IMG/VR virus record: IMGVR_UViG_3300020153_000005
Span: 1 to 31,067 of that record
Length of the DNA: 31,067 bases
Reading direction: 5' to 3' (one strand)
Source: a virus
Of this stretch, positions 1 to 31,067 are shown in pieces. A program made the translations under genes and the position numbers. Position 1 is the stretch's first letter. Every line of letters starts with the position of its first letter. Under the pieces are notes generated by a model. It was not told where the DNA came from. It was given only the letters and a program-made list of their open reading frames with translations, and ran no database searches.

Positions 1-127
1 AGTCCTCTAATTTGATTGGTGTTAATTCTTTCCAGTTTCCGTTTATATCCCGAACTTCAACTCTTTCTACATCAAAAGCCGTAGACGGCAATTCATAACT
101 ACTTTGATTATTTACCAGTGTTCTTTC
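1..127. repeat. Terminal direct repeat, copy 1. It is identical to 30941-31067 and indicates a circularly closed or terminally redundant genome.
   Basis: Bases 1-127 (agtcctctaatttgattggtg...ccagtgttctttc) recur exactly at 30941-31067. The unique length is therefore 30,940 bp. Confidence 0.95.
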
Positions 128-2385: not shown

Positions 2386-3297
2386 CTATGCAGTAGCTCC
2401 TGTTTTAACATTAATCACCCAGTCTGCATTCAAAACTTTAGTTGCAAACAAGGCTTTCCAACCAACCGTGCTGAAAGTATCAAGAGGATTATCAGTAGAT
2501 GCTGGACCAGGTTGTTTTACATAAATTCTATAACCAGGTTGACCTTCTAAGCTAACTGTTCCGTAAGCATTCTTTCCGAAGAAGAAGTTACTGTAAACAG
2601 TAACTGTAGAAGATTCTGTTCTACCTTGATTTGTTTCGTAAAATTCAACCCCGTGCAATCTACCGAGTAATCCAGCTTGAATGTTTTCTGGAGAGGTGTA
2701 TCTGTAAGCATCAAGCCATTCAGAATTACCCATTAAATCATAAGCAGTAGCAGGTTGAACAACGGCTTTATAATAACCGTTTTCAAACCTCTTCGCTTTA
2801 TTTGTTTTAAGGGTTCTGACGGCTTTTCTTACCTCAGCACCAGTTAAAACATCTGTAGCGGCAATAGCTGAAATATTTGATTTACCACCAGCAAGCTGAA
2901 CGGTTGCACCGCTGAACAACTCCTCTCTTACTAAAGCATCTAAACTTTCTCCAGCATTTTGACCGTGAACTTCAACATGCTCTTCAAGATTCTCATCAAG
3001 AGATGTGAGTTCAAACAAAGCAGAAACTTTTGTCCAGTTTCCGTATTCAGCTAAAGTAGCTGAAACAATAGTTGTGGTCATATCAGCAGCCGATGGAATA
3101 AAGTCAGATTCAGTAATAGGAGTTGTAACAACGGCTAATGGAGAAAATCTATTCCAATAAACAGTTTTTCCACTATTAGCAGGAATAGTTTTTCTTTGAG
3201 CACCAACATCGTGAACCAATTCAGCCTTTGCCCTCTCCAAGAAAACTCTATCGTAATAAATTTGCATCAAGTTGGTAAGGGTTGTTGTTAATGACAT
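2386..3297 (-). CDS. Major capsid protein, HK97 fold (N4-gp56-like family).
   Basis: The N-terminus IYYDRVFLERAKAELVHDVGAQRKTIPANSGKTVYWNRFSPL matches the conserved start of this capsid family. It is 303 aa and sits directly after a scaffold-like gene and the portal. Confidence 0.85.
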   Translation of the reverse strand: MSLTTTLTNLMQIYYDRVFLERAKAELVHDVGAQRKTIPANSGKTVYWNRFSPLAVVTTPITESDFIPSAADMTTTIVSATLAEYGNWTKVSALFELTSLDENLEEHVEVHGQNAGESLDALVREELFSGATVQLAGGKSNISAIAATDVLTGAEVRKAVRTLKTNKAKRFENGYYKAVVQPATAYDLMGNSEWLDAYRYTSPENIQAGLLGRLHGVEFYETNQGRTESSTVTVYSNFFFGKNAYGTVSLEGQPGYRIYVKQPGPASTDNPLDTFSTVGWKALFATKVLNADWVINVKTGATA

Positions 3298-4225: not shown

Positions 4226-6025
4226 TTATTGAATTTGGCTTGCTAAAGACGCTAATTGCGGTGGAATTTCACTTTGTTGTTCTAATTGAAATTGCGGTGT
4301 TTTAATGTTTTCTGTGACTTGCGTTTCTCCTTTTTCTAATTCTTTTTCAATTTCAAGTGGGTCTATACCAAGTAAAGAAATAAGCTTCAATCCAACTTTT
4401 CTTATAACTGGGTCTTTCATTTGCTGTAATAACGGCAAAATTGATTGTAAATTATTCATCAAAACCTGCGGTTCAAAGTTTTCATTATCAACAACAATAT
4501 CAAAATCAAAATCTATATCATTATAAAAATCAGTATTTTTCTTCAAAAACCTAACAAAACCAATTCTCTTTAATTCGTTTCTTAATTTCTCTTTTTGTTT
4601 TTCAATTTCTTCTTCTTCTGGCAAAAATCCAGTTGAATTTAGATAATCAATTTTATATTTCTCAGTAGCCATTTCTAATATTTTATTATCAAAATATTCA
4701 ACATCTTGTCCCGTTATTCTTACAACTTCTCCTTTTTCAATTTCTTTCTTTGCTTCTGGTAAAACAAAATCTTTTATAACTTCTCTTAAGAAAATAACAA
4801 AATTTTCTCTCTTAAAACCGAAAACTGAAGTTGCGGCTTGGCTTTGAATTATAGCATTCGTTGCTGGTGTAGTTGCTGGTAAACTTTCGCCTCTTACAAC
4901 ATCATAAGAAAAGGTTTGCCTGTCTGCTAAAGTATCCCATCTAATTTCTTCTGATTGAAAAGCGGCTAAATTTCTTTCTTCATTAACAATTGGCTGGATT
5001 GGTGCTTGACCAACATTTATAACATCTCCATTCTCTAAATCTGTTAATAAATTCTTTATAAAACCACTTCCTGCCCGCTGAAAAAGATGCATTGAAGATA
5101 TTGCCATTGAAACTCTTTTTAGATTAGCTAATTCGTTAATTCTCTCTTGAACTGGGAATAATTCCTCTACAACACCATAACCAAGCCATCTTCCCTTAAT
5201 TTTTGAGTAATGACAATCTTTGAATGGATATTCTTTGTGCCATTCAGCCTTGAATAAAACTAATCCATTTTCATTTCCTTTTTTATCAACATTAAAAGCA
5301 TCAGCAACAATAAACAAGCTTCTTACATATTCATTACTATCTTTTTCTTTGCCAGTAATCCAAGATTTTGGTACTTCTCCATATCTTTCATAAATCTTAA
5401 AGTATTCTTCTTGCTCTTGTTTTACTTCCCCTTTATTTTCAAAAGCCTCTTTTTCTTTTTTAAACTCTTTTCTTGTTAAAAGTATATCAACATTATCCCA
5501 AACGCCACGCTTTTTTCTTAATTCGGTTTCTGTTAAATAATGAACTTGAATTATAAAATTAGAATCTTGAATTTTTTCTACGGTTGGGTCTAAAAATAAT
5601 TTTCTCAAATCAACTATTTGAATATCATTTTTAACTTTTTTAACAACAACGCTTCCAAAAATTGGTAATTCTTCTGCTAATTCATTTAGAACTTTTGAAA
5701 AGTTTTTCTTTTTGAACCACTGCTTAAGTTCATTCTCAAAAAGCTTAACTTTAAATTGCGAATTATAATCTTTTTCGATTAAACGAAAATCTTTAACATC
5801 TACATCTAAAAATTTCGTAGCAACCATTGCTCGGAAATTCACGATGTTAAAAAAAATCTTTTTCAAGCCTGATATTTTTGAATTATCTAAAAATTGCGAC
5901 GCTCGGTATAAGTTTATTTTTCTAATCGTTTCGTACTGATTAAAACCCCAACCTGGCACAATTTCTACGGAATTGTAAATAAAATTGTTTATTTCCTTTC
6001 TTATTTGGGAAAAGATATTATCCAT
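4226..6025 (-). CDS. Portal protein.
   Basis: 599 aa. It is the first large gene after terL and precedes the scaffold and capsid genes. The call rests on size and synteny. The acidic C-terminal tail is typical of portals. Confidence 0.7.
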   Translation of the reverse strand: MDNIFSQIRKEINNFIYNSVEIVPGWGFNQYETIRKINLYRASQFLDNSKISGLKKIFFNIVNFRAMVATKFLDVDVKDFRLIEKDYNSQFKVKLFENELKQWFKKKNFSKVLNELAEELPIFGSVVVKKVKNDIQIVDLRKLFLDPTVEKIQDSNFIIQVHYLTETELRKKRGVWDNVDILLTRKEFKKEKEAFENKGEVKQEQEEYFKIYERYGEVPKSWITGKEKDSNEYVRSLFIVADAFNVDKKGNENGLVLFKAEWHKEYPFKDCHYSKIKGRWLGYGVVEELFPVQERINELANLKRVSMAISSMHLFQRAGSGFIKNLLTDLENGDVINVGQAPIQPIVNEERNLAAFQSEEIRWDTLADRQTFSYDVVRGESLPATTPATNAIIQSQAATSVFGFKRENFVIFLREVIKDFVLPEAKKEIEKGEVVRITGQDVEYFDNKILEMATEKYKIDYLNSTGFLPEEEEIEKQKEKLRNELKRIGFVRFLKKNTDFYNDIDFDFDIVVDNENFEPQVLMNNLQSILPLLQQMKDPVIRKVGLKLISLLGIDPLEIEKELEKGETQVTENIKTPQFQLEQQSEIPPQLASLASQIQ

Positions 6026-6375: not shown

Positions 6376-6537
6376 TCAAGAGTTTAAAAACTTTAAAATC
6401 TTTAAAATTAATTTAACCAACTCTTCATCTTTATCTATTTGATTATAAAATTTACATCTTGGGCATTTAACTTCGCCGATAAAATATTCTGCGTAAAACA
6501 ACAATCTTTTACATTTTTTACATCTAAACTCTTTCAT
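6376..6537 (-). CDS. Zinc-ribbon mini-protein (53 aa).
   Basis: MKEFRCKKCKRLLFYAEYFIGEVKCPRCKFYNQ.... Its ATG overlaps the terL TGA (ATGA). The pattern is CxxC-x15-CxxC. Hand-translated; below the track cutoff. Confidence 0.5.
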   Translation of the reverse strand: MKEFRCKKCKRLLFYAEYFIGEVKCPRCKFYNQIDKDEELVKLILKILKFLNS

Positions 6538-7943
6538 TCAAAAGAAATTGGATGATTGCGACGCTCGTATATTCTTTGAATTTCTTCTAAATTAGAAATT
6601 GGTGGTTGAGCGATTTCTAATTGATAAGCCAAGGCGTCTAAAATATCATCGTGTTTGCCAACTGGAAAAGTTAACAATTCCTCCTCTAAAGCCTCATTTT
6701 CTTTTTCAATTAAGAAAACTGAACCGCTTTCAAATCTTGGTATTAATCCCCTTATTCTTATTTCTTTTTTTATTCCTTTATGCTTTAAAGGTATAATTGG
6801 TAAAAATATATTTCTCCGCCTCATTTCTTCATCCAAAAACGGCTTTAACCCGATGGTATATTGCGTTTCTTCAATGCCTATTTTATCATATCTATCAATT
6901 TGATGAAGCTCAAAAATTCTATCAACTAATTCAGTGGGAGTTAATTTCGCTCTAAAAGACAAAATATTCCATTTGTTCTGATTATCCACAAAATTTCTCA
7001 CAAAGCCCGTATAGTCGTTTTCTTCTCCTTTTCCCATCGCTGGATCAATCGTAAGATATCGGGAAGTTTCTAATTTCTGAAGTTCGTCTATTGTTCTATA
7101 TTTAATCCAATGTTTTTTAAATTCTTGGTTTTCGCTGCTTATCGGTTCTTGTTGATAAAGGGCTGAAAAATTATAAGTTCCGATGTTTCTTTTTATTTCT
7201 TCGATTTCTGATAAAGGGAATCTCTCGGACCACAAAACCTCGCCTTGTTTTCTCCATTTCTCGTCTTCGGTGGCAATTGCTGGATATTTTATAACTTTCC
7301 AATTATCTTCATTTTTTAAAATTCTTCCCGCCAAATCATCTAAATGCCAGCGTGTTTGGATAAGAATAATTGCCCCGCCTGGAGATAACCTTGTTCTCAA
7401 AACTGAAGCATAATACTCATATATTTTATTTCTGAAAGCCCCACTCTCGGCTTCTTCTCTTGATTTTATAGGATCGTCAATAATGAGAATATCCGCCCCC
7501 CTACCAGTGATAGAACCCCCAAATCCCACAGCAGTATACCCACCAGTAGACCCCTCAAAACTCCATCTTGTTTTTGCTGAAATATCATCCCTAATTTTTT
7601 TATTAAAAATAAATTGATATACAGGCGAAGAAACAACATCTCTTGCTTTTAACCCGAATTCTCCCGCCAATTCTGCTGAATAAGAAGCGACTATTATCTC
7701 TTTATCTGGGTTTTTGCCTAAAGCCCAAACAGGAAAATATACCGAAGAAAGTAAACTTTTGCCGTGCCGAGGAGGCATAAAAATCATCAATCTTTTATTT
7801 TCGCCATTCTCTATTTTTTCGAGTTCCCGAATTATCTCTTTAATAAAAAACGGGAGCTTAAATTTCTCGTCTATTGCTAAACAAAAAGCATCTAAATAGC
7901 GGCTGGCAGCTTCTTTTATAAGAATTTCTTTTTCATTCTCCAT
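6534..7943 (-). CDS. terL: Terminase large subunit.
   Basis: Walker A-like FMPPRHGKS, Walker B ILIIDDP, the coupling motif TRWH..D, and a C-terminal RNaseH-like nuclease region (LTIDPA..., HDDILDA). Confidence 0.9.
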   Translation of the reverse strand: MENEKEILIKEAASRYLDAFCLAIDEKFKLPFFIKEIIRELEKIENGENKRLMIFMPPRHGKSLLSSVYFPVWALGKNPDKEIIVASYSAELAGEFGLKARDVVSSPVYQFIFNKKIRDDISAKTRWSFEGSTGGYTAVGFGGSITGRGADILIIDDPIKSREEAESGAFRNKIYEYYASVLRTRLSPGGAIILIQTRWHLDDLAGRILKNEDNWKVIKYPAIATEDEKWRKQGEVLWSERFPLSEIEEIKRNIGTYNFSALYQQEPISSENQEFKKHWIKYRTIDELQKLETSRYLTIDPAMGKGEENDYTGFVRNFVDNQNKWNILSFRAKLTPTELVDRIFELHQIDRYDKIGIEETQYTIGLKPFLDEEMRRRNIFLPIIPLKHKGIKKEIRIRGLIPRFESGSVFLIEKENEALEEELLTFPVGKHDDILDALAYQLEIAQPPISNLEEIQRIYERRNHPISFE

Positions 7944-10420: not shown

Positions 10421-10456
10421 ATTTTTTTATTTTTTAAACGACCTTTAATTAATGAC

Positions 10457-10948
10457 CTAATATTCATTGTTTATTAAATCTTCAATGTTAATTCCTTTTT
10501 CTCTTTCTTCTTGCGATATTTCACATAAATCTAAATCGCCCGAAATCCCAGAAGCATCTCCATAGATTCCAGAAACGTCACCTTTAATTCCGGAAACATC
10601 GCCACTAACACCAGAAGCATCTCCTCTAATACCAGAAACATTGCCTATAATTTTAGAAACATTGCCTCTAATACCAGAAACATTACCTCTAATACCAGAA
10701 ACATTGCCTATAATTTCAGAAACATCGCCATATATTTCAGAAACATCGCCATATATTCCAGAAACATCGCCTTTAATTCCGGAAACATCTCCATCAATTC
10801 CAGAAACATCACCTCTAATTCCAGAAACATCTCCATATATATTTGAAATATCTCCATATATATCTGAATGAACACCTTCTTTTATTTTGTTATCTTCAAA
10901 ATAATAAGTTTTAAATTGTATTATTCCTCGTTTTAATGCTTTTTTCAT
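10457..10948 (-). CDS. Heptapeptide tandem-repeat protein (G-D/N-V-S-G-I-x, about 15-16 copies). It is probably a beta-solenoid; function unknown.
   Basis: Residues 32-138 show uninterrupted period-7 repeats (GDVSGIR, GDVSGIK, GNVSGIR and similar), flanked by short unique N- and C-termini. Confidence 0.7.
   Translation of the reverse strand: MKKALKRGIIQFKTYYFEDNKIKEGVHSDIYGDISNIYGDVSGIRGDVSGIDGDVSGIKGDVSGIYGDVSEIYGDVSEIIGNVSGIRGNVSGIRGNVSKIIGNVSGIRGDASGVSGDVSGIKGDVSGIYGDASGISGDLDLCEISQEEREKGINIEDLINNEY
10535..10855. repeat. 21-bp tandem repeat array (coding).
   Basis: Units such as ccagaaacatcgcc(a/t)(c/t)taatt recur with a 21-nt period. The array is in frame within CDS 10457-10948. Confidence 0.85.
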
Positions 10949-14418: not shown

Positions 14419-15180
14419 ATGAAAATCAAGTCTTATATTGTCTGTTCTGACCATCACTGCCCTTTCCACAATAAGGCAGTTCATAAAGCTTTTCTGAAGT
14501 TTTTAAAAAACTTCAAGCCCGATGGTTTTGTTATTGCTGGTGATTTTGTTGATATGTATTCGATTTCAAGTCATATTTTAGGAGTTCGTGACCTAGAAAT
14601 GGCTGAAAGAAAAATACTAACTCTTCAAGATGAGTTTAGGGTTGCAAATGAAGTTCTTGATGATTATGATAAAGTTCTTCCTAAAAACTGCGAGAAATTT
14701 TTCTTAACCGGAAATCACGAGGATAGACTAGAAAGATTTCTTAATACTGATAAAAATGCGGTTTTGGAAGGACTTATTACTATTGATGGGATGCTTTATC
14801 TTAGGGATCGTGGATATAAATACATTAACGGCTATCCCAATAATTACATTAAGCTTGGGAAGTTAATTGTTACTCACGGTTCTTGGTCTCCAAAATACTC
14901 AGCTTCTAAACATCTTGATGAGTATAGGCATTCTGTAATGTATGGACACGTTCATTCTCCGCAACTCATCTATGCTGGTGGTTTAGATGTAAAACAGGTT
15001 TCTTATGGTCTAGGTCATATGGCTGATGTTAACTCAAAAGGAATGGCTTATGCTAAAAAAACAGCTCGCTGGGTTAATGGTTTCGCTATTGTTTATGTTG
15101 ATACTTCTAATGGTCATTTCTGGGTTGAACTTTTGAATTTCTGGAATAATCGTTTAATTTATAACAAAAAAATTTACTAA
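14419..15180 (+). CDS. Calcineurin-like metallophosphoesterase (paralogue 1).
   Basis: Motifs are in canonical order: SDHH, GDFVD, GNHEDR, THG, GHVH. The SD is AAAGGAGG. Confidence 0.75.
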   Translation: MKIKSYIVCSDHHCPFHNKAVHKAFLKFLKNFKPDGFVIAGDFVDMYSISSHILGVRDLEMAERKILTLQDEFRVANEVLDDYDKVLPKNCEKFFLTGNHEDRLERFLNTDKNAVLEGLITIDGMLYLRDRGYKYINGYPNNYIKLGKLIVTHGSWSPKYSASKHLDEYRHSVMYGHVHSPQLIYAGGLDVKQVSYGLGHMADVNSKGMAYAKKTARWVNGFAIVYVDTSNGHFWVELLNFWNNRLIYNKKIY

Positions 15181-17269: not shown

Positions 17270-17989
17270 TTATAAAATAATTAAATAAGGCATCCAGCCA
17301 AAATTCTGTTTTTCTATAATTAGAAATCCATTTTGCCAATTAAAAGTTCCGCTATAAAAAGGCGGCTTGCATAAACAAGGGCATTCTATCCCGAATCTTT
17401 TAAGACCGAATTCATCGGTGTCCCAAATAATTGCTCCCCGGTGGCAATGACTTTGAACTACATTGTTTGACTTTATTTTCTTTTGCATAATGTTTCTTAT
17501 CGTCATCCCCGCCGGGACAACCGAATTGCTAACCGTATCAAAATGACCAATCACAATATCGTCTATTTTTATAAAAGTATCAGTCCATTTAGAAGCCAAT
17601 TTTTTTGTTTCAATAAATTCAACATTTAGTTCATCAAGTCCTAAATCCCTTCTTAAATCAACATATTCATAAAGATGCGGGGCTAATCTTAACACATAAG
17701 AACGAAATCTAAATTCGTGATTACCTTCAATAAAAATTATTCTCGCTTCGGGGACAATTTTTCTTAAATCAGAAAAAAACTGCCAGCCTAAATTCAGCTG
17801 GTCAGTTAATTTTATTCTGTCTATTTCTGGAGAAATAACATATTTTGAAAGGGATGGAAAATCAAGCAAATCACCATTAACAACAACAATATCAGGTTGC
17901 GTTTGTTTGATGGTATCAAAACAAAAATTTAAATATTTATCTTCTTGAAAAGGAAAATGGATATCACCTAAAACAAAAATTTTTCTCAC
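17270..17989 (-). CDS. Calcineurin-like metallophosphoesterase (paralogue 2).
   Basis: GTG start. Motifs are GDIHFP, NGDLLDF, GNHEFR, GH and HCH. It is the last gene of the minus-strand late operon and is convergent with the plus-strand island. Confidence 0.7.
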   Translation of the reverse strand: MRKIFVLGDIHFPFQEDKYLNFCFDTIKQTQPDIVVVNGDLLDFPSLSKYVISPEIDRIKLTDQLNLGWQFFSDLRKIVPEARIIFIEGNHEFRFRSYVLRLAPHLYEYVDLRRDLGLDELNVEFIETKKLASKWTDTFIKIDDIVIGHFDTVSNSVVPAGMTIRNIMQKKIKSNNVVQSHCHRGAIIWDTDEFGLKRFGIECPCLCKPPFYSGTFNWQNGFLIIEKQNFGWMPYLIIL

Positions 17990-19907: not shown

Positions 19908-21437
19908 TTAAAAATTAGACAAACTCGCTTTTTTCCAACCAGCATTTGTTTTTACATATATATTATTATCGTCCCAAGCTATATTACCAACCTCACCATT
20001 TATATCATCTGTTCCACTTGGACTATAACTGGTTGATAATCTTAATTGACTATATCCGCTTGTTCCTTGAATATGCACATTTGAAGTTGGATTACTTGTT
20101 CCAAAACCAACCTTATCACCAAAATAACCTACTCCACCAATAGCATAAATTGAATAATAATTATCAGCGTAAGATGGTTTAGCTGGGACATACACGGCAT
20201 ACATATTATTTATCCTGCTACTTGGATTATTTAAATTAGAAAACAAATCTAACCATAAAGCAGCCCAATGCTGTATATTGCCTGGAGTATCATTACCAAT
20301 CTTAGCGATATCAACCCAAACATTAAAATTTGCAGCTCTTTCTACAGAAGAAGTTCCACCCCAAATATAAACACCACTATTAATACCATACAATCTTCTT
20401 AAAAAGGAAGTTCCTGTTCCTTTGTATTTTGCGTAAGTCAAAAATCCCATAACAGGCAACCAACTTGAAACTGTATTTGAGTTTCCATTAAAAATAGCTT
20501 GATGAAAACTACCGATGGCGGGAAATGTATTTACATTTTCTGTATTTTGCGTTATTTCAGTTAAGAATTGACCAGCTGCCCACCAATCCGTTCCATTTTG
20601 TTTTTTCTCTACCGTAAAGACCGTTGGATTTGCATCCGAAAAGTTAATTGAAACTCTACCATTAGAATCTACAAATAAACCAGCGGAGGTTGAATTTCCT
20701 CTCAATCTTGTAGTTCCACTTACCTCTAAATCTTCTTGGGGATTAGCTGTTTTAATCCCCACTCTTCCATTTGTTTTATCAATAAATAAAGTAGCGTTCC
20801 CGTCTATATTCCAATTATTAGTAATAGAAACAGAGCCGTCTTTTTTAAGAACATCGGCTTCATTTGCTTTTGAATTAAGAGCATCTTGAAGGTCAGTTTG
20901 TAAAGCTATGTTTCCACTTATTTGCCCCCATTGAGTAGCTGAACCAACATAAACTCTTCTTTCATTGTAAATAGCATATTCAGCTAATTTCTCTCTTAAA
21001 TCTTTAATAGCATCAATTGAAAGCCTATCTTTACCTTTTAAGGATTCTAATTTATCTCTTATCTGTTCAGGTGTATCTGGTGAACCAGGATCACCTTTAT
21101 CGCCTTTTTCTCCTTTAGGACCAGGGGGACCAGGAGGACCAGGTGGACCTGATGGACCTTGAGGACCTCTTTCTCCTTTTTCCCCTTTCTCACCTCTTTC
21201 TCCTTTTTCGCCTTTAGGACCAGGTGGACCAGGGGGTCCTTGTTCTCCTCTGTCTCCTTTATCACCCTTAATCCCAATTAAAGTTATGTTTTTTAAATTT
21301 TTAAGTAAATTTAATAAATCGGTATTTTTAGAAATAACCTTAAGTTCTTTGTTAACATCCTCAAGTTTTTCTACACCCTCATTTATTTGGTCTATAATAA
21401 TGTCCGTATTTACTTTAAGATTTTTTATTTCCTCCAT
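19908..21437 (-). CDS. Collagen-like tail fibre protein.
   Basis: It has an N-terminal coiled-coil-like region, then 22 uninterrupted G-X-Y triplets (aa 55-120, nt 21078-21275; [16 protein letters not shown]...), then a globular domain of about 390 aa. Confidence 0.75.
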
Positions 21438-25447: not shown

Positions 25448-26932
25448 TTATATTACTATATTGCTTTCTTCGTAAAGAATAGCAATTTCTTTAATCACTC
25501 CCGACCACGATGATGTACCACTTTTATAACCGTGTATTTCAATTTGGAATTTGGAACATAATTTATTAACATCAATAACTGTGCGGTGTTTTTGAGCAGA
25601 ACTAGTAATTGTTGCAATCAATGAACGGTTAAAATCTGTTCTATTATAATCATTTTTGGTATTAAGATAAATCTTAATTTCATCACCAACCGAAGGTTTG
25701 TTATCATAGAAAATAATTATTTTCCTTATATTTATATTTTTTCTTTCTTTAAGTTTAATCCAATTTGAAAAGTAATAGTAATTATCTTTTCCACTGGAAC
25801 TAAAAATATAATAACTCCTAACTCTTGTATAAGAATTTTCATTTTTATCAAAAACAAAAATTTCGTTATTGCCCCCACCCCAAGAATAAAAACCAGTAAC
25901 GGTAAAAGGCGCACTAAAACTTTCTTTCTCAACTAGGTTAATTAAGTTAAAAACTTTAAAATTGCCCGTCGTTGTTACTCCTTCCATAGGTAAAACTAAA
26001 TAATTACCAATTCCAAAAACAAAATTTTTCATAATTGTACTTCCGCTTGGTAACAAACAACCTGTACTTATTATTTCCTTTTGTATAAAAGAAAAACCAA
26101 TCAATTCAGATATAATAGTCGAACCACCAATCACCGAAACTAAATACCAAGAACCAGCAACTTTTGTTAATCCCTGATAACTACCAACAATGTTTTTTGC
26201 ATCTATAAAACTGTTTGAAATTCCATCCCAAAAGAAAATGGTATAATCGCCAGATTTTGTTGATTTAGTTACTACCGCAATATAAGTGTCATTAATGTTT
26301 CGTATATCTACGATTTGATTTTCTTGACCGACATCAAATGTAACTAAAGGACTTCCCCCTAAAGAAGAATCATAAACCTGAACATATCTTCTAAATGAAC
26401 CAGATGAATCGGTATCTGATACATAAAAATAACGATTAAAAACTTCTCCATATCTAAAATTGTAACCACCCCCAAAACTTGCCCAAGAACCAGAATTGTC
26501 TTCATTTTTCTTATATAAAAGAGCGCCGCCTATAATAGCTACTACCTTACCATTAAAAGAAACAATATCGTGTCCCACACTATCACTGGTAGGACTACCA
26601 GCTGGATAATCAAAATCGCTGTTATAAGTTTCAAAAAAAGCCAAAACTCTTGATTTTGAAGTTATGGCAATAAAATCACCTTTCCCGCTTGAAGTTTTTG
26701 TTTTGGTAAAAGAAACAATATGACCAAAATCTTCTGACCAATCAAAAGACGATAAAGAATCGTGAGGAGCTAAAGGATAAAAAGAATCATTTTTATGAAT
26801 ATAAATATCGCCAGCCGAAAAATTTTTCCAAGCAATAGGATTAGCTATTATTAAACGATGCGGATTTTCAGAGGTTGTTTCTATACTCCTAAAAGTTTGA
26901 CTTCTAAAATCTTTTAAAATTATCTCTTTCAT
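25448..26932 (-). CDS. Tail structural protein (494 aa), rich in beta strands.
   Basis: It is Ser/Gly/Tyr-rich with repetitive beta-strand-like segments, compatible with a propeller or nozzle-type tail protein. The call rests on position only. Confidence 0.4.
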   Translation of the reverse strand: MKEIILKDFRSQTFRSIETTSENPHRLIIANPIAWKNFSAGDIYIHKNDSFYPLAPHDSLSSFDWSEDFGHIVSFTKTKTSSGKGDFIAITSKSRVLAFFETYNSDFDYPAGSPTSDSVGHDIVSFNGKVVAIIGGALLYKKNEDNSGSWASFGGGYNFRYGEVFNRYFYVSDTDSSGSFRRYVQVYDSSLGGSPLVTFDVGQENQIVDIRNINDTYIAVVTKSTKSGDYTIFFWDGISNSFIDAKNIVGSYQGLTKVAGSWYLVSVIGGSTIISELIGFSFIQKEIISTGCLLPSGSTIMKNFVFGIGNYLVLPMEGVTTTGNFKVFNLINLVEKESFSAPFTVTGFYSWGGGNNEIFVFDKNENSYTRVRSYYIFSSSGKDNYYYFSNWIKLKERKNINIRKIIIFYDNKPSVGDEIKIYLNTKNDYNRTDFNRSLIATITSSAQKHRTVIDVNKLCSKFQIEIHGYKSGTSSWSGVIKEIAILYEESNIVI

Positions 26933-27198
26933 ACTATTTCTAAAATAAAATAATAAACCGTTGATGTATCCGAACTCGACGCTGAAGTAATAGTGGCAGA
27001 ACCATCACCACAAGATATTCTTAAATCACCAATCGTCCCGCCAGCAGTTTTTCTTGAAACCAACCCGATAGAAGATGTTCTTATTTTAGGATGGATAATC
27101 GTCGCCGACCCCGAAGTAAGAGTTTTCTCGCCAGCAACCACCAATGAATACAGAATAGCTTTTTTATCTTCTAAATCAAGTGGAAAATCTAATTTCAT
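26929..27198 (-). CDS. Hypothetical small structural-module protein (89 aa).
   Basis: ATG-initiated ORF with 4-nt overlaps to both neighbours. Confidence 0.5.
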   Translation of the reverse strand: MKLDFPLDLEDKKAILYSLVVAGEKTLTSGSATIIHPKIRTSSIGLVSRKTAGGTIGDLRISCGDGSATITSASSSDTSTVYYFILEIV

Positions 27199-27465: not shown

Positions 27466-29532
27466 TTAGAAAGTTGAAAGTAAAAGACGACGACGGGCAG
27501 AAGTCAAAATTTCTTCTGATCCAAAGTTTAATAAAGTATTGTTTCCAGAATGATAAGAAGCTTTTATCCAAGCGGCAGGACGAGCAATGTTAGATATCCG
27601 AACCTCATCTGCATAAGCATAATAAGTACGCTGACCAGCGCCTGAAAATAACAATCTAACAATATGAGAAGAATCTGAAGGGTCGGAATAAATTACTTCA
27701 CTACCCCTTGATACAGAATTTACTAAAGTTCCATCAATATATAAATTTAAATTATAAGACGAATCAAATACTCCTACTATATAATACCAAACATTTGTAT
27801 CCATTGCCGACCCTGATAAATTTGTATTATTAACCGAAAAAGATATAACATTAGCCGGATAATCAAATCCCAACACCCAAGACCAATAACTATTTGCATC
27901 AGCACATCTTCTGCCAAATCCAACATCGTATCTATCCGTTCTCTTTCCCCACAATTCTATTGTAAAAACAGAAAAATCAAGATTATAGTTTTGTATTGAT
28001 GCGCCTTTAATAGAAGTATTTCCTCCTTTATATAACCCCCCATCAATTTTACCATCAACATATGATAAATCTCCCAAATCATTAAAATTATTGTTATTGA
28101 TTGTTGAATCATTTAAATTATTTCTCAAATGCCAAACACCTTTAAAATTACTATCCCAAACATTAGTCGGGTCTGCTCCATCAGAAGCATCAGGATTTCC
28201 ATAATAAAGATAAAATGATTTATTTTGTCCAGCAGTTAAAGAAGGAATTTTCACGTGATATTCAGCAACTTGATTAGTGGCATCGTGTCTCTCTCTTTCG
28301 TATTTTAAAAGAGTTTCGCCATCAGAAGCGCAATTCCCGCTCCAAAGAGATTTTCCGTTTCTTCTAACATAAATAATATGATTGGGAACTGTTATATCAT
28401 ATACAAACCCCTCATAATCAATCCACTCTCGTTTATCTGTTCTATTAACTTGAATTGTTTCTCTTTTGGTTAATGATAAAACATATCCTTCTTTTCTTTT
28501 ATATTTTCCAAAAGCAAGGGTTCCACCCAATCTTTTTTTAAAAGAGCAACTATATCCTAATTTTAAAGCAACTTCTGAAATGTCATCCGCTAACTGTTTA
28601 GAAGTTGTAAAATAAATAATATTTCTTCCTCTTTTATGCCCATCACCTCTAACTAACCACTCAAATAAAATTTCTAACTGTCTTTTACTTAAATTTTTTA
28701 TTTCTTTGGGGATAAATTTTTCGTATGTTTTTCCAAATTGAGATAAATAACTATATAACTGAATATTAATTATTCTCAAATTAGATGCATCTTTTCTTTT
28801 TACAAAAGATGGATTGAAACCATATTTCTTTAATAATTTAGCCAAAAAGATAAGAATATTTTCATCTTTTTGTGTTATGGTAATAGTGTGTGCGTGTCCA
28901 TCAATAAAACAACTTCCCTCTGCTAACCAAAAACCAAAAAACTTTAACCAATCGTCCATTAAAATTTTTTTAGGACGAATAAACTCTTTCCCCCTTCTTC
29001 CATTGTATCTTATGGTAGCGGGTAAAATAAACCATTTTTTTTCTTCACCCTCCCAATTTGCCGAAACTTGAAGATAATAATGTTTTGGTAAATCTTTTGC
29101 TCTAATTATTTGAAAATTTCTCTTTTTTCTTCTATCCCATTCTTTCTTAACCCACATTCTATGCTCTGGTGTTACTAATAAATCCACAATTCTTCCTTTC
29201 TGATGAAACAACTTACCCTTAAACCAAATTTTCTGGTAATCTATTGGATAGTGATATTCAAGTTTATTGGTATTAGGATTAAGAGTAGCAACTTTTACTT
29301 GTAATCTTTTTTCCACCAAATCTTTCAAAAGCATCCAACCATTTTCTGTTAAAATTTCTGTATCTGGACTATAACAAAATCTTATATCTGTACCATCGCT
29401 TCTTGCTTTTGAAAAATCAAAATTAGAAGATGTTAAAATTACGGCAACGGGAAAATCGGTTAAATTGGCATCAATTTTGGTACCATCTATTGTTATTTTT
29501 TTTCTATATGCCCATCCTGATAGCCAAGCCAT
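27466..29532 (-). CDS. Tail fibre / receptor-binding-type protein with DUF2341 and LamG (concanavalin-like lectin) domains, interrupted by an intein.
   Basis: ATG 29532 (MAWLSGWAYRKKITIDG...DFPV...GTDIRF). After the intein it continues CASDGETLLKYERE...YLYYGNP...VWHL and a LamG_3-like region ending DEVRISNIARPAAWI. The mature extein would be about 340 aa. Confidence 0.7.
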   Translation of the reverse strand: MAWLSGWAYRKKITIDGTKIDANLTDFPVAVILTSSNFDFSKARSDGTDIRFCYSPDTEILTENGWMLLKDLVEKRLQVKVATLNPNTNKLEYHYPIDYQKIWFKGKLFHQKGRIVDLLVTPEHRMWVKKEWDRRKKRNFQIIRAKDLPKHYYLQVSANWEGEEKKWFILPATIRYNGRRGKEFIRPKKILMDDWLKFFGFWLAEGSCFIDGHAHTITITQKDENILIFLAKLLKKYGFNPSFVKRKDASNLRIINIQLYSYLSQFGKTYEKFIPKEIKNLSKRQLEILFEWLVRGDGHKRGRNIIYFTTSKQLADDISEVALKLGYSCSFKKRLGGTLAFGKYKRKEGYVLSLTKRETIQVNRTDKREWIDYEGFVYDITVPNHIIYVRRNGKSLWSGNCASDGETLLKYERERHDATNQVAEYHVKIPSLTAGQNKSFYLYYGNPDASDGADPTNVWDSNFKGVWHLRNNLNDSTINNNNFNDLGDLSYVDGKIDGGLYKGGNTSIKGASIQNYNLDFSVFTIELWGKRTDRYDVGFGRRCADANSYWSWVLGFDYPANVISFSVNNTNLSGSAMDTNVWYYIVGVFDSSYNLNLYIDGTLVNSVSRGSEVIYSDPSDSSHIVRLLFSGAGQRTYYAYADEVRISNIARPAAWIKASYHSGNNTLLNFGSEEILTSARRRLLLSTF
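28333..29376 (-). mobile_element. Full-length intein (348 aa) with a LAGLIDADG homing-endonuclease domain.
   Basis: Block A is CYSPDTEILTENGW and block B is LLVTPEHRMW. The LAGLIDADG motifs are FFGFWLAEGSC and LFEWLVRGDGH. Blocks F/G are FVYDITVPNHIIYV...KSLWSGN, followed by a +1 Cys. Confidence 0.85.
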
Positions 29533-29533
29533 T

Positions 29534-30388
29534 TTATTGTTCTTCACTATAACTCACGACCGCTTTTGAAGTTGTGACATACTTTATAATTATCTCCATT
29601 GTCTTGTTTGCGGTTGTAGCCGTAGGTAAATCTCCGCCAATTCCTACATAATGATTTCCAAAAGTTAAAGTTCTTGAAGTTCCGTTATCGGTAATATAGA
29701 TTATAAAAATATCGCCAACAGAAGGAGAGGTAGCGTTGTTTATGGTTAAATTATCAGCTAAAGCTGTTAAGTAGTATTCATCATAACTTGCTTTATCAGG
29801 AGTTATAGATGAAACTGAAGTTTGCGAATTTTGACGAGGGGATATTTTTTTATTAGATAAAGATTGTGTATCAGTGGTTCCAACAACATCGCCAGAAGGC
29901 AAAAGTTTTCCACTATCTTTTATAAGTTTTCCAGTTGTCCCGTCAAATAAAACTACGGCATTGTTAGTTGAAGATGAAGGACCAGAAACATCACCAGCGC
30001 CCTGTCCATCTTGTCCTTTTTGTGCTAACAATTCCCAGTAAGAAGGATTGGTTGGTAATTCACCTGTATTTGCCTGAATACAAATATAAGATGATCCCTG
30101 ATATTGAACTGCGTCATCTACGCTGTAAGCGGTTGAACTTGACCATTCGCCCCTCCAATTTAACCCCTTTTCTCCTTGCGGACCTTGCGGACCTTGCGGA
30201 CCAGTTGCTCCTGTATCTCCTTTTTCAGCAACTAATTTCCAATAAGAAGTATCAGTTGGTAAATTTCCTAATGAATTTTGAATACAGGTATAACAAGACC
30301 CTTGATATAAAACAAAATCGCCAACATAGTATTGAGTTGACCCGTTATATTCTCCTTTCCAAACTTGTGACCAAAGTTTATTTGCCAT
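29534..30388 (-). CDS. Tail fibre protein with two CBM5/12-like carbohydrate-binding modules and a short collagen-like segment.
   Basis: The duplicated module is W..W.G.Y.G...Y.VGD.V.YQGS.Y.CIQ......P...SYW (aa 5-52 and 78-120). GDTGATGPQGPQGPQGEKG (nt 30164-30220) contains a 9-bp x3 tandem repeat. Confidence 0.65.
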   Translation of the reverse strand: MANKLWSQVWKGEYNGSTQYYVGDFVLYQGSCYTCIQNSLGNLPTDTSYWKLVAEKGDTGATGPQGPQGPQGEKGLNWRGEWSSSTAYSVDDAVQYQGSSYICIQANTGELPTNPSYWELLAQKGQDGQGAGDVSGPSSSTNNAVVLFDGTTGKLIKDSGKLLPSGDVVGTTDTQSLSNKKISPRQNSQTSVSSITPDKASYDEYYLTALADNLTINNATSPSVGDIFIIYITDNGTSRTLTFGNHYVGIGGDLPTATTANKTMEIIIKYVTTSKAVVSYSEEQ

Positions 30389-30566: not shown

Positions 30567-31067
30567 TTATTCAAAATTATAATATCTTGGTTGAAGCCTT
30601 ACTTTAATTTCGCCTCTTTGTGTAAAATAATCTATAAATCTTTGCCTCCATTCTTCAGCTTTTTTATTCAAGTAAGCAATTTTATCGGTTAAGCCATTTA
30701 CAGCTGAATACTCCAAAGCGACTAAAAATGGAATAATTGGATGTAAAACCAAGGGAATACCAGGTTCTTTTGTGGTATCGGTTGAAACAAATTCTGAAAT
30801 ATCTCTTGAAACATAAATTCTAACTTTTGAAACTAAAGAGGTATCAGGTGCTGGTTTTAAAAATAAATCAAATCCCTCAATATAGTAATAAGCTGGAACT
30901 CCAGCTGTTTTATAAAATTCATCAACCGCCACGTCTTTTAAGTCCTCTAATTTGATTGGTGTTAATTCTTTCCAGTTTCCGTTTATATCCCGAACTTCAA
31001 CTCTTTCTACATCAAAAGCCGTAGACGGCAATTCATAACTACTTTGATTATTTACCAGTGTTCTTTC
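30567..31067 (-). CDS. C-terminal part of the 233-aa wrapped structural gene (see feature 1-328).
   Basis: The track ORF 30567..31031 begins at an internal TTG. The frame stays open to 31067 and continues via the terminal repeat to ATG 328. Confidence 0.55.
   Translation of the reverse strand, partial: ERTLVNNQSSYELPSTAFDVERVEVRDINGNWKELTPIKLEDLKDVAVDEFYKTAGVPAYYYIEGFDLFLKPAPDTSLVSKVRIYVSRDISEFVSTDTTKEPGIPLVLHPIIPFLVALEYSAVNGLTDKIAYLNKKAEEWRQRFIDYFTQRGEIKVRLQPRYYNFE
30941..31067. repeat. Terminal direct repeat, copy 2.
   Basis: Identical to bases 1-127. Confidence 0.95.

What the first reader, a model, noticed from the sequence alone, without database searches (positions are those of the whole stretch)
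28333..29376. Full-length LAGLIDADG intein inserted in a lectin-type tail fibre protein
The 693-aa ORF is a DUF2341+LamG fibre-type protein split after the conserved G-T-D-I-R-F motif by a 348-aa insert.
- The insert carries all canonical intein blocks: N-terminal Cys with DTEILT, TPEH, two LAGLIDADG motifs, VYDITV..HIIYV, a terminal Asn, and a +1 Cys.
- Joining the flanks gives DIRF-CASDGETLLKYE, which restores the usual DUF2341 sequence.
- Phage inteins are normally found in terminase, polymerase, helicase, RNR or portal genes. One in a receptor-binding-type structural protein is unusual.
- Fibre assembly would therefore depend on protein splicing.
- The penultimate residue is Gly rather than the usual His, so splicing chemistry or efficiency may be atypical and possibly conditional.
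Basis: partly seen in the sequence, partly recalled or inferred. Interest (0 to 1): 0.8.

Follow-up and report, generated by a model that had tools for sequence, protein, structure and literature searches.

The report
Homing intein in phage tail-module lectin protein
A complete self-splicing, mobile protein insert (an intein with a LAGLIDADG homing endonuclease) interrupts a lectin-like tail-module gene of a small phage. The element itself is ordinary, but the host protein family is unusual and is invaded at five different sites in public metagenomes.

Summary
Window 28333-29376 (- strand) encodes a 348-aa insert in the ORF 27466-29547. The insert is absent from more than 450 homologues of about 340 aa, which close up exactly across F|[T/C/A].

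The insert is a canonical class-1 intein with an intact two-motif LAGLIDADG endonuclease. It has Cys1, block B TxxH, block F Asp and His, a terminal Asn and a +1 Cys. The AlphaFold model has pLDDT 94.8, and its best PDB matches are TliVMA, PI-PfuI and PI-SceI.

The penultimate Gly is not an anomaly. It is nearly invariant in this large intein clade (...VRRNGKxxW[CS]GN|[CST]). A phage intein with a penultimate Gly has been shown to splice faster than its Gly-to-His mutant.

The host gene lies in the tail module of a complete ~30.9-kb SU10-like podophage. "Tail fibre" is inferred from synteny only.

The case is not unique. I found 21 intein-bearing DUF2341/LamG genes with five insertion sites. 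Six of them share this site. Among the four full-length alleles at this site, the inteins are 75-85% identical while the exteins are 31-50% identical, which indicates recent homing.

Verdict: a real element and a new member of a known kind, in an atypical, non-enzymatic host family. Interest is moderate.

The parts
27466..29547 (-). Precursor ORF for the DUF2341-LamG protein interrupted by the intein. It is 693 aa from GTG 29547, or more probably 688 aa from ATG 29532.
   Evidence: The database copy P0241 is 688 aa and 100% identical.
29377..29532 (-). N-extein, 52 aa from the ATG, ending in the invariant motif G-x-D-[IV]-R-F of DUF2341.
   Evidence: G52, D54, R56 and F57 are invariant in alignment A1.
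28333..29376 (-). Intein, 348 aa, class 1, with an embedded LAGLIDADG homing endonuclease.
29338..29376 (-). Splicing block A (CYSPDTEILTENG). Cys1 is the first nucleophile.
   Evidence: C1, T6, T10 and G13 are invariant in 43 clade members.
29161..29181 (-). Splicing block B (LLVTPEH), carrying the TxxH motif.
   Evidence: T69 and H72 are invariant in 43 of 43.
28522..28989 (-). Homing endonuclease domain, about intein residues 130-285. LAGLIDADG motif 1 is at 28912-28947 (…WLAEGS) and motif 2 at 28636-28665 (…LVRGDGH).
   Evidence: Pfam LAGLIDADG_3. E153 is an acidic residue in 43 of 43, and G154, G244, D245 and G246 are invariant. The fold matches I-DmoI and PI-SceI.
28366..28404 (-). Splicing block F (VYDITVPNHIIYV), with Asp327 and His333.
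   Evidence: His333 is present in 38 of 43.
28330..28365 (-). Splicing block G plus the +1 residue (RRNGKSLWSGN|C): terminal Asn348, penultimate Gly347 and +1 Cys.
   Evidence: N348 is present in 43 of 43, G347 in 39 of 43 and W345 in 40 of 43. The same ending is seen in most of the 120 relatives.
27466..28332 (-). C-extein, 288 aa plus the stop codon. It holds the rest of DUF2341 (28153-28326) and the LamG / ConA-like lectin domain (27565-28002).

Best explanation
The insert is a canonical class-1 intein with a LAGLIDADG homing endonuclease. It sits in the most conserved motif (…G-x-D-I-R-F | x-S-D-G-x-T-L-L…) of a DUF2341-LamG protein. That protein is encoded in the tail module of a complete ~30.9-kb SU10-like podophage.

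Shown here:
- The insertion is precise and in frame relative to many intein-less homologues.
- All splicing residues and both endonuclease catalytic acidic residues are intact.
- A high-confidence model shows the Hint plus LAGLIDADG fold.
- The intein belongs to a large clade whose normal C-terminus is …W[CS]GN.

Inferred:
- After translation, Cys1 forms a thioester.
- The +1 Cys attacks it, Asn348 cyclises, and the 40-kDa intein is released.
- A ~340-aa mature lectin-like protein is ligated. Only then can it complete its N-terminal beta-sandwich, because the insertion point lies inside a predicted beta-strand.
- During co-infection the released endonuclease cuts intein-less alleles at the conserved DIRF/SDG site and is copied in by repair (homing).
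- This explains why inteins at this site are 75-85% identical while the exteins that carry them are only 31-50% identical.

The mature protein is probably a tail-associated carbohydrate-binding or adhesion component. This is inferred from synteny and the lectin fold and has not been demonstrated.
For: - Clean 348-aa gap against 12 homologues, and empty sites in related phage DNA that are nearly identical to the rejoined window sequence.
- End-to-end similarity to the annotated P1201 intein and to inserts in other intein-bearing phage genes.
- 367 relatives with E<=1e-5, located in dCTP deaminase, ThyX, MCM and other genes.
- Invariant C1, T69, H72, N348 and the GDG motif.
- AF2 pLDDT 94.8 and pTM 0.92.
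- Foldseek matches to TliVMA (E 3.7e-19), PhoVMA, PI-PfuI and PI-SceI.
- Penultimate Gly is the clade norm, and there is experimental precedent for fast splicing with Gly.
- Intein identity is far above extein identity at the same site, and inteins cluster by site: 62.8% within sites against 45.5% between sites.
- The phage context is clear: TerL, SU10-type portal and adaptor, major head protein and collagen/CBM5_12 fibres. The genome has a 127-nt terminal overlap.
- Relatives are syntenic both without the intein (L001) and with it (L026).
- The same protein occurs in two independent assemblies.
Against: - No experiment shows splicing or DNA cleavage.
- Pfam and NCBIfam Hint/intein models are below their cut-offs.
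- The function of the extein is unknown. It has no PHROG and no GenBank phage homologue, so the tail role is inferred from position.
- All 16 IMG/VR relatives lack the intein, so invasion is rare in the family.
Confidence: 0.85

Rival explanations
1. Conditional or slow-splicing intein. In this view the non-His penultimate residue, or the two junction cysteines, make splicing dependent on redox state or other conditions. Maturation of the tail protein would then be regulated after translation.
For: Both junction nucleophiles are Cys, so a redox trap is conceivable. Conditional splicing is documented for other inteins (cited). Nothing here excludes it.
Against: The Gly is a clade-wide conserved residue, not a lesion. 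A block F His (H333) that can substitute for the penultimate His is present. The Bethlehem RDF intein with a penultimate Gly splices completely and is slowed by G->H. The pattern of intein identity above extein identity fits selfish homing and needs no regulatory role.
Confidence: 0.08
2. Decayed or non-splicing insert. In this view the element no longer splices, so the gene is either inactivated or carries a permanent 40-kDa domain.
For: Hint HMM scores are sub-threshold. One same-site relative (P0131/L006) has lost the N-terminal half of its intein.
Against: Every catalytic position is intact and matches residues that are invariant in the clade. The ORF is uninterrupted. The model is highly confident. 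Same-site alleles keep all motifs at 75-85% identity.
Confidence: 0.05
3. The extein is not a tail fibre or receptor-binding protein. It could instead be another kind of tail-module protein, such as an accessory lectin, an assembly factor, or a non-virion protein that binds the host surface. The intein reading is unchanged, but the claim that fibre assembly depends on splicing would fall.
For: There is no homology to characterised fibres. The model is globular with no fibrous or trimerisation module. DUF2341 also occurs in cellular Patescibacteria/CPR surface and pilus-like proteins. Two clear collagen-like fibre genes already exist in this genome.
Against: The gene holds a conserved position between the adaptor/fibre genes and the large tail genes in three related phages. 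Structural matches include viral DUF2341/ConA-like proteins, some of them annotated as baseplate or tail hub.
Confidence: 0.35

Closest known systems
Corynebacterium phage P1201 thymidylate synthase (ThyX) intein, and the related insert in the mycobacteriophage C1-cluster nucleotidyltransferase (a family listed as intein-bearing in PMC5050341)
   Same: They belong to the same intein clade. They start C-Y-x-x-D-T-E, carry TPxH, two LAGLIDADG motifs and VPNH..V.RRNGK..W/H.GN|[ST]. They are 25-28% identical end to end. All are phage-borne.
   Different: Their hosts are nucleotide-metabolism enzymes. Here the host is a non-enzymatic DUF2341-LamG tail-module protein.
Archaeal VMA inteins with homing endonuclease (TliVMA 7qsu, PhoVMA 7qst), PI-PfuI and PI-SceI
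   Same: They are the best structural matches, with TM about 0.6-0.7 and E from 1e-19 to 1e-12. They share the Hint domain split by a two-motif LAGLIDADG endonuclease.
   Different: Sequence identity is only 11-18%. Their hosts are cellular ATPase or RNR genes. The window intein lacks the large extra DNA-recognition region of PI-SceI (348 aa against about 454 aa).
Mycobacteriophage Bethlehem RDF intein (penultimate Gly)
   Same: It is a class-1 phage intein that ends in Gly-Asn. It is experimentally splicing-competent and is slowed by G->H.
   Different: It has no detectable sequence homology to the window intein by BLASTP, and its extein is different (a metallophosphoesterase).
Other intein-bearing DUF2341/LamG genes in metagenomes (P0242-P0245, P0247, P0249-P0251, P0253, P0254, P0256, P0257, P0263, P0121, P0131, P0179, P0191, P0192, P0198, P0238)
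   Same: They share the extein family and the intein clade. Six share this exact site. P0244 lies in a syntenic 44-kb phage contig.
   Different: Four further sites are used: FY|xYYGN, A|EYxVKIPS, NF|KGVWHL and the LamG site FDGxDDY|. Some contigs look like different, possibly archaeal, viruses. None is annotated or described in the literature I could search.

Membership tests
Class-1 intein (Hint-domain protein-splicing element) | Precise in-frame insertion that is absent from orthologues, with flanks that rejoin into the conserved host sequence | tested here: met
   There is a single 348-aa gap. DIRF|CASDGETLLKYE aligns with DIRF|TSSDGTTLLKYE.
Class-1 intein (Hint-domain protein-splicing element) | N-terminal nucleophile (Cys/Ser/Thr) and block B TxxH | tested here: met
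   C1, T69 and H72 are invariant in 43 relatives.
Class-1 intein (Hint-domain protein-splicing element) | C-terminal Asn (or Gln/Asp) followed by a +1 Cys/Ser/Thr | tested here: met
   N348|C. The same holds in most of the 120 relatives.
Class-1 intein (Hint-domain protein-splicing element) | Penultimate His in block G (common but not obligatory) | tested here: not met
   The residue is Gly347. Gly is the clade consensus, 39 of 43. Functional inteins without this His are documented, so this does not exclude membership.
Class-1 intein (Hint-domain protein-splicing element) | Hint fold | tested here: met
   AF2 pLDDT 94.8. The top Foldseek hits are all inteins. The Pfam Hint HMMs alone were sub-threshold.
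Class-1 intein (Hint-domain protein-splicing element) | Demonstrated protein splicing | not testable with these tools
   This needs expression followed by SDS-PAGE and mass spectrometry.
Class-3 intein (WCT triplet, block F Cys nucleophile) | No N-terminal nucleophile, and Cys at block F position 4 | tested here: not met
   Cys1 is present and invariant. Block F position 4 is Asp327 in the window, although 31 of 43 relatives have Cys there.
LAGLIDADG homing endonuclease (single-chain, two-motif) | Two LAGLIDADG helices, each ending in a catalytic acidic residue followed by Gly | tested here: met
   …WLAEG (E153) and …VRGDG (D245). The positions are conserved. Pfam LAGLIDADG_3 scores above its cut-off. 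The fold matches I-DmoI.
LAGLIDADG homing endonuclease (single-chain, two-motif) | Site-specific cleavage and mobility | tested here: inconclusive
   The evidence is indirect. Same-site inteins are 75-85% identical while their exteins are 31-50% identical. Cleavage itself was not testable.
Phage tail fibre / receptor-binding protein | Homology to a characterised fibre or RBP | tested here: not met
   No PHROG match, no GenBank phage match, and the PDB matches are generic lectin jelly-rolls.
Phage tail fibre / receptor-binding protein | Location in the tail gene module | tested here: met
   The gene lies between the adaptor/CBM5_12 fibre genes and the large tail genes. The position is conserved in L001 and L026.
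Phage tail fibre / receptor-binding protein | Presence in the virion and receptor binding | not testable with these tools
   This needs virion proteomics or structural work.
DUF2341 (PF10102) + Laminin_G_3 (PF13385) protein | Pfam hits above the gathering score | tested here: met
   37.3 bits against a cut-off of 23.4, and 49 bits against a cut-off of 27.6. There are 453 homologues with the same architecture.

The most novel reading that the evidence does not exclude
DUF2341/LamG virion-type lectin proteins of uncultivated phages, and probably archaeal viruses, are an unrecognised intein hot spot. One intein clade has colonised at least five separate conserved motifs of a non-enzymatic structural or adhesin protein that binds no nucleotide, and it is moving between highly diverged alleles. 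This would be a natural counter-example to the rule that inteins live in the active sites of DNA and nucleotide metabolism enzymes. It would also give a system in which host-recognition hardware cannot mature without protein splicing.
Probability: 0.5. Interest if true: 0.55.

Novelty: new member of a known kind. Interest (0 to 1): 0.45.

Why it matters
Inteins are heavily biased towards replication, repair and nucleotide-metabolism enzymes, and towards their ATP- or substrate-binding motifs. That bias underlies the debate over whether inteins are purely selfish or serve as regulatory sensors.

Here a mobile intein clade occupies five conserved motifs of a lectin-like virion-module protein that has no catalytic site. 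This supports the view that sequence conservation, plus frequent co-infection and recombination, is enough for intein persistence.

The finding also adds a new extein family. It offers compact (~340 aa) inteins ending in Gly-Asn whose native flanks are beta-sandwich strands, which may be useful for engineering. Annotators should note that tail-module genes of about 690 aa in such phages hide a ~340-aa mature protein.

Tried and rejected
- **Hint/intein HMMs.** Pfam Hint_2 and Intein_splicing and NCBIfam intein_Nterm were all below cut-off. I replaced them with homologue, conservation and fold evidence.
- **Extein function.** PHROGs gave no family. tblastn against 50,697 GenBank phages gave no match. 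The PDB fold search returned only generic ConA-like jelly-rolls from clostridial neurotoxin Hc-N.
- **IMG/VR scan for relatives.** It found 16 loci, all intein-free at this site. The intein-bearing relatives appeared only when the full precursor was used as the query.
- **Penultimate Gly as a defect.** Rejected.
- **Class-3 intein.** Rejected, because Cys1 is invariant and block F position 4 is Asp here.
- **Assembly chimera as the source of the insert.** Rejected. The identical 688-aa protein occurs on two independent contigs of 31,081 and 30,906 nt, and there are full-length same-site alleles elsewhere.
- **Foreign base composition of the insert.** The difference is slight: GC 29.3% against 33.3% in the exteins and 31.8% genome-wide. 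This is not informative.
- **Other features.** Rfam gave no hits, tRNA search found none, and the promoter scan showed no enrichment. The + strand ORF 28814-29071 inside the intein has no support.
- **Literature.** Searches combining intein with tail fibre, tail proteins, LamG or DUF2341 found no report of an intein in a tail protein. The nearest case is an intein in a phage minor head protein.
Full report
**1. What is in the sequence**

- The - strand ORF 27466..29547 encodes 693 aa from a GTG.
- All homologues begin at MAWLSGW. The ATG at 29532 lies one base after the stop codon of the upstream gene. The database copy of this protein is 688 aa. The ATG is therefore the likely start.
- Pfam scores LAGLIDADG_3, DUF2341 and Laminin_G_3 above their gathering cut-offs.
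- The Hint and intein-splicing models are only marginal, at E 0.02-0.1. I therefore tested the intein assignment by other means.

**2. Is it an insertion?**

- The rejoined flanks (345 aa) find 453 proteins with E<=1e-5. Nearly all have the DUF2341+Laminin_G_3 architecture, and most of the best matches are 330-360 aa long. The best is 75% identical.
- In an alignment with 12 of these, the window protein carries one uninterrupted 348-residue block. It lies between the invariant F of G-x-D-[IV]-R-F and the next residue, which is T, A or C in homologues. Both flanks are the most conserved stretches of the family.
- At the DNA level, the rejoined window sequence GCAAGAAGCGATGGTACAGATATAAGATTT|TGCGCTTCTGATGGCGAAACT closely matches the uninterrupted site of related phage contigs. 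For example, L001 has GCAAGAAGCGATGGTTTTGATATCAGATTT|ACCGATTCTGATGGCGTAACT, and L007 has a natural TGC at +1.

**3. Is it an intein?**

- tblastn against GenBank phages aligns residues 58-405, and nothing else, with several phage genes:
  - the annotated intein of Corynebacterium phage P1201 thymidylate synthase;
  - the Gordonia phage GMA6 terminase;
  - mycobacteriophage nucleotidyltransferases;
  - Lak megaphages.
- Against the 5.8-billion-protein collection it has 367 relatives with E<=1e-5. They sit inside unrelated hosts, including dCTP deaminase, ThyX, thymidylate synthase, PAPS reductase, methyltransferases, MCM, ligase, primase and RuvC.
- In a 43-sequence alignment, C1, T6, T10, G13, T69, H72, F146, G154, G244-D245-G246, R339 and N348 are invariant. 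E153 (39 of 43, otherwise D), W345 and G347 are conserved at 90% or more.
- AlphaFold2 with this alignment gives pLDDT 94.8 and pTM 0.92.
- The best PDB matches are endonuclease-containing inteins: TliVMA (E 3.7e-19, TM 0.70), PhoVMA, PI-PfuI, PI-SceI and PI-TkoII. They are followed by the free-standing LAGLIDADG enzyme I-DmoI for the central domain.
- The element is therefore a class-1 intein with a two-motif LAGLIDADG endonuclease. Both catalytic acidic residues are present.

**4. The penultimate Gly**

- Most of the 120 nearest relatives end …VRRNGKxxW[CS][GS]N|[CST]. Gly is at that position in 39 of the 43 aligned sequences.
- The window intein also has the canonical block F Asp (D327) and a block F His (H333, present in 38 of 43).
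- Kelley et al. (PMC5050341) report three relevant points:
  - Class-1 phage inteins frequently replace the penultimate His by Gly, Lys or Ser.
  - The Bethlehem RDF intein, which has a penultimate Gly, splices to completion and is slowed by G->H.
  - A block F His can take over the role of the penultimate His.
- The Gly is therefore a conserved clade character. It is not evidence of impaired or conditional splicing.

**5. Context**

- The first and last 127 nt of the window are identical. This indicates a complete genome of ~30,940 bp, either circularly permuted or assembled as a circle.
- The genome encodes:
  - TerL (6534-7943);
  - an SU10-type portal (4226-6025);
  - the major head protein (2386-3297);
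  - an SU10-type adaptor that spans the window ends (30567-31031 and beyond);
  - a CBM5_12/collagen fibre (29534-30388);
  - the intein-bearing gene;
  - two 89-aa ORFs;
  - three large proteins with no or only weak family matches;
  - a second collagen-like fibre (19908-21437).
- The same gene order, with an intein-less 340-aa DUF2341-LamG gene, is found in a 32-kb relative, L001.
- The same order, with an intein at the same site, is found in a 44-kb relative, L026.
- The gene is thus a conserved member of the tail module.
- That it is a fibre or receptor-binding protein remains an inference, for these reasons:
  - It has no PHROG and no GenBank phage homologue.
  - The model of its closest intein-less homologue (pLDDT 78) is a globular N-terminal beta-sandwich plus a ConA-like jelly-roll.
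  - That model resembles lectin domains of clostridial neurotoxins and viral DUF2341/ConA-like proteins.
- In that model the insertion point falls inside a confidently predicted beta-strand (residues 50-54 of P0001). The DUF2341 domain probably cannot fold fully until the exteins are ligated. This is an inference.

**6. Not a singleton**

Searching with the whole precursor returned the window protein itself (P0241) and further proteins that combine PF10102 (with or without PF13385) and PF14528. Together with the hits, I mapped 21 intein-bearing family members onto the window's mature sequence:

| Site | Junction | Members |
|---|---|---|
| a | DIRF\| | window, P0242, P0243, P0244, P0121 (full length in L003), P0131 (C-terminal half only) |
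| b | FY\|xYYGN | seven proteins |
| c | A\|EYxVKIPS | two proteins |
| d | NF\|KGVWHL | one protein |
| e | FDGxDDY\| (LamG motif) | five proteins |

- All of these inteins belong to the same clade and keep the catalytic motifs.
- Inteins cluster by site, with mean identity 62.8% within sites and 45.5% between sites.
- At site a, the four full-length inteins (window, P0242, P0243, P0244) are 75-85% identical while the exteins that carry them are only 31-50% identical. The more distant same-site intein P0121 is about 50% identical to these.
- This is the expected footprint of horizontal transfer by homing.
- Some carriers lie on contigs that look like other, possibly archaeal, viruses.

**7. 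Comparison with what is known, and novelty**

- The mechanism is that of a textbook mobile intein.
- What is unusual is the host. Kelley et al. list 13 intein-bearing mycobacteriophage protein groups, and none is a tail protein.
- Bellas et al. found no inteins among 36 variable tail-fibre genes. They did find one in a minor head protein.
- My searches for intein with tail fibre, tail proteins, LamG or DUF2341 found no report.
- I therefore classify the finding as a new member of a known kind, an intein in a new and atypical extein family.
- The added observation is that this family is a multi-site intein target.
- Interest is moderate at 0.45. The case is a good natural test of why inteins persist where they do, but it does not need new biology to explain it.

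Noticed in passing
window 1-127 and 30941-31067: The two ends carry an exact 127-nt direct repeat. The window is therefore a complete genome of ~30,940 bp, either circularly permuted or assembled as a circle. The adaptor gene runs across the junction: it is 245 aa in the independent contig L030 but only a 154-aa ORF in the window.
   Followed up: partly
window 10514-10898 (inside ORF 10457-10948, - strand): The ORF holds a tandem array of about 18 copies of a 21-nt unit, which encodes a heptad-like peptide repeat (GDVSGI[YRK])n in a 163-aa protein of unknown function.
   Followed up: no
window, - strand, motif ends near 10446, 10974, 11203, 13980 and 18248: The conserved motif TAAAGGTCGTTTAAAAAATAAAAA occurs five times. 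Each copy lies about 18-22 nt upstream of an ATG start codon, so it is probably a phage-specific promoter or translation-initiation element.
   Followed up: partly
window 26929-27198 (-) and L026 13769-14059: A small ORF of 89-96 aa with a precomputed K1-lyase_C Pfam hit is conserved just downstream of the DUF2341-LamG gene in the window phage and in the intein-bearing relative.
   Followed up: no
window 14419-15180 (+) and 17270-17989 (-): Two paralogous metallophosphoesterase genes lie on opposite strands. This is the protein family that hosts the Bethlehem RDF intein, but both copies here are intein-free.
   Followed up: no
window 19908-21437 and 29534-30388 (-): There are two collagen-repeat tail-fibre genes. 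The second carries two CBM5_12 carbohydrate-binding modules immediately upstream of the intein-bearing gene.
   Followed up: partly
L006 (NCBI GCA_011640815.1, 1,745-nt contig), protein P0131: A lipoprotein-like signal sequence is fused directly to the C-terminal 133 residues of a site-a intein (75% identical to the window's), followed by a normal DUF2341-LamG C-extein. This is either a chimeric assembly or a truncated intein.
   Followed up: partly
P0246 (1,048 aa) and L007 8-271: P0246 carries two inteins of this clade in one protein. The IMG/VR relative L007 has part of another intein of the clade in a different gene about 3.7 kb upstream of its intein-free DUF2341 gene.
   Followed up: no
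alignment A3, intein position 327 (block F position 4): 31 of 43 clade members have Cys at block F position 4, the position of the class-3 nucleophile, while all retain Cys1. The window intein has the canonical Asp at this position.
   Followed up: no
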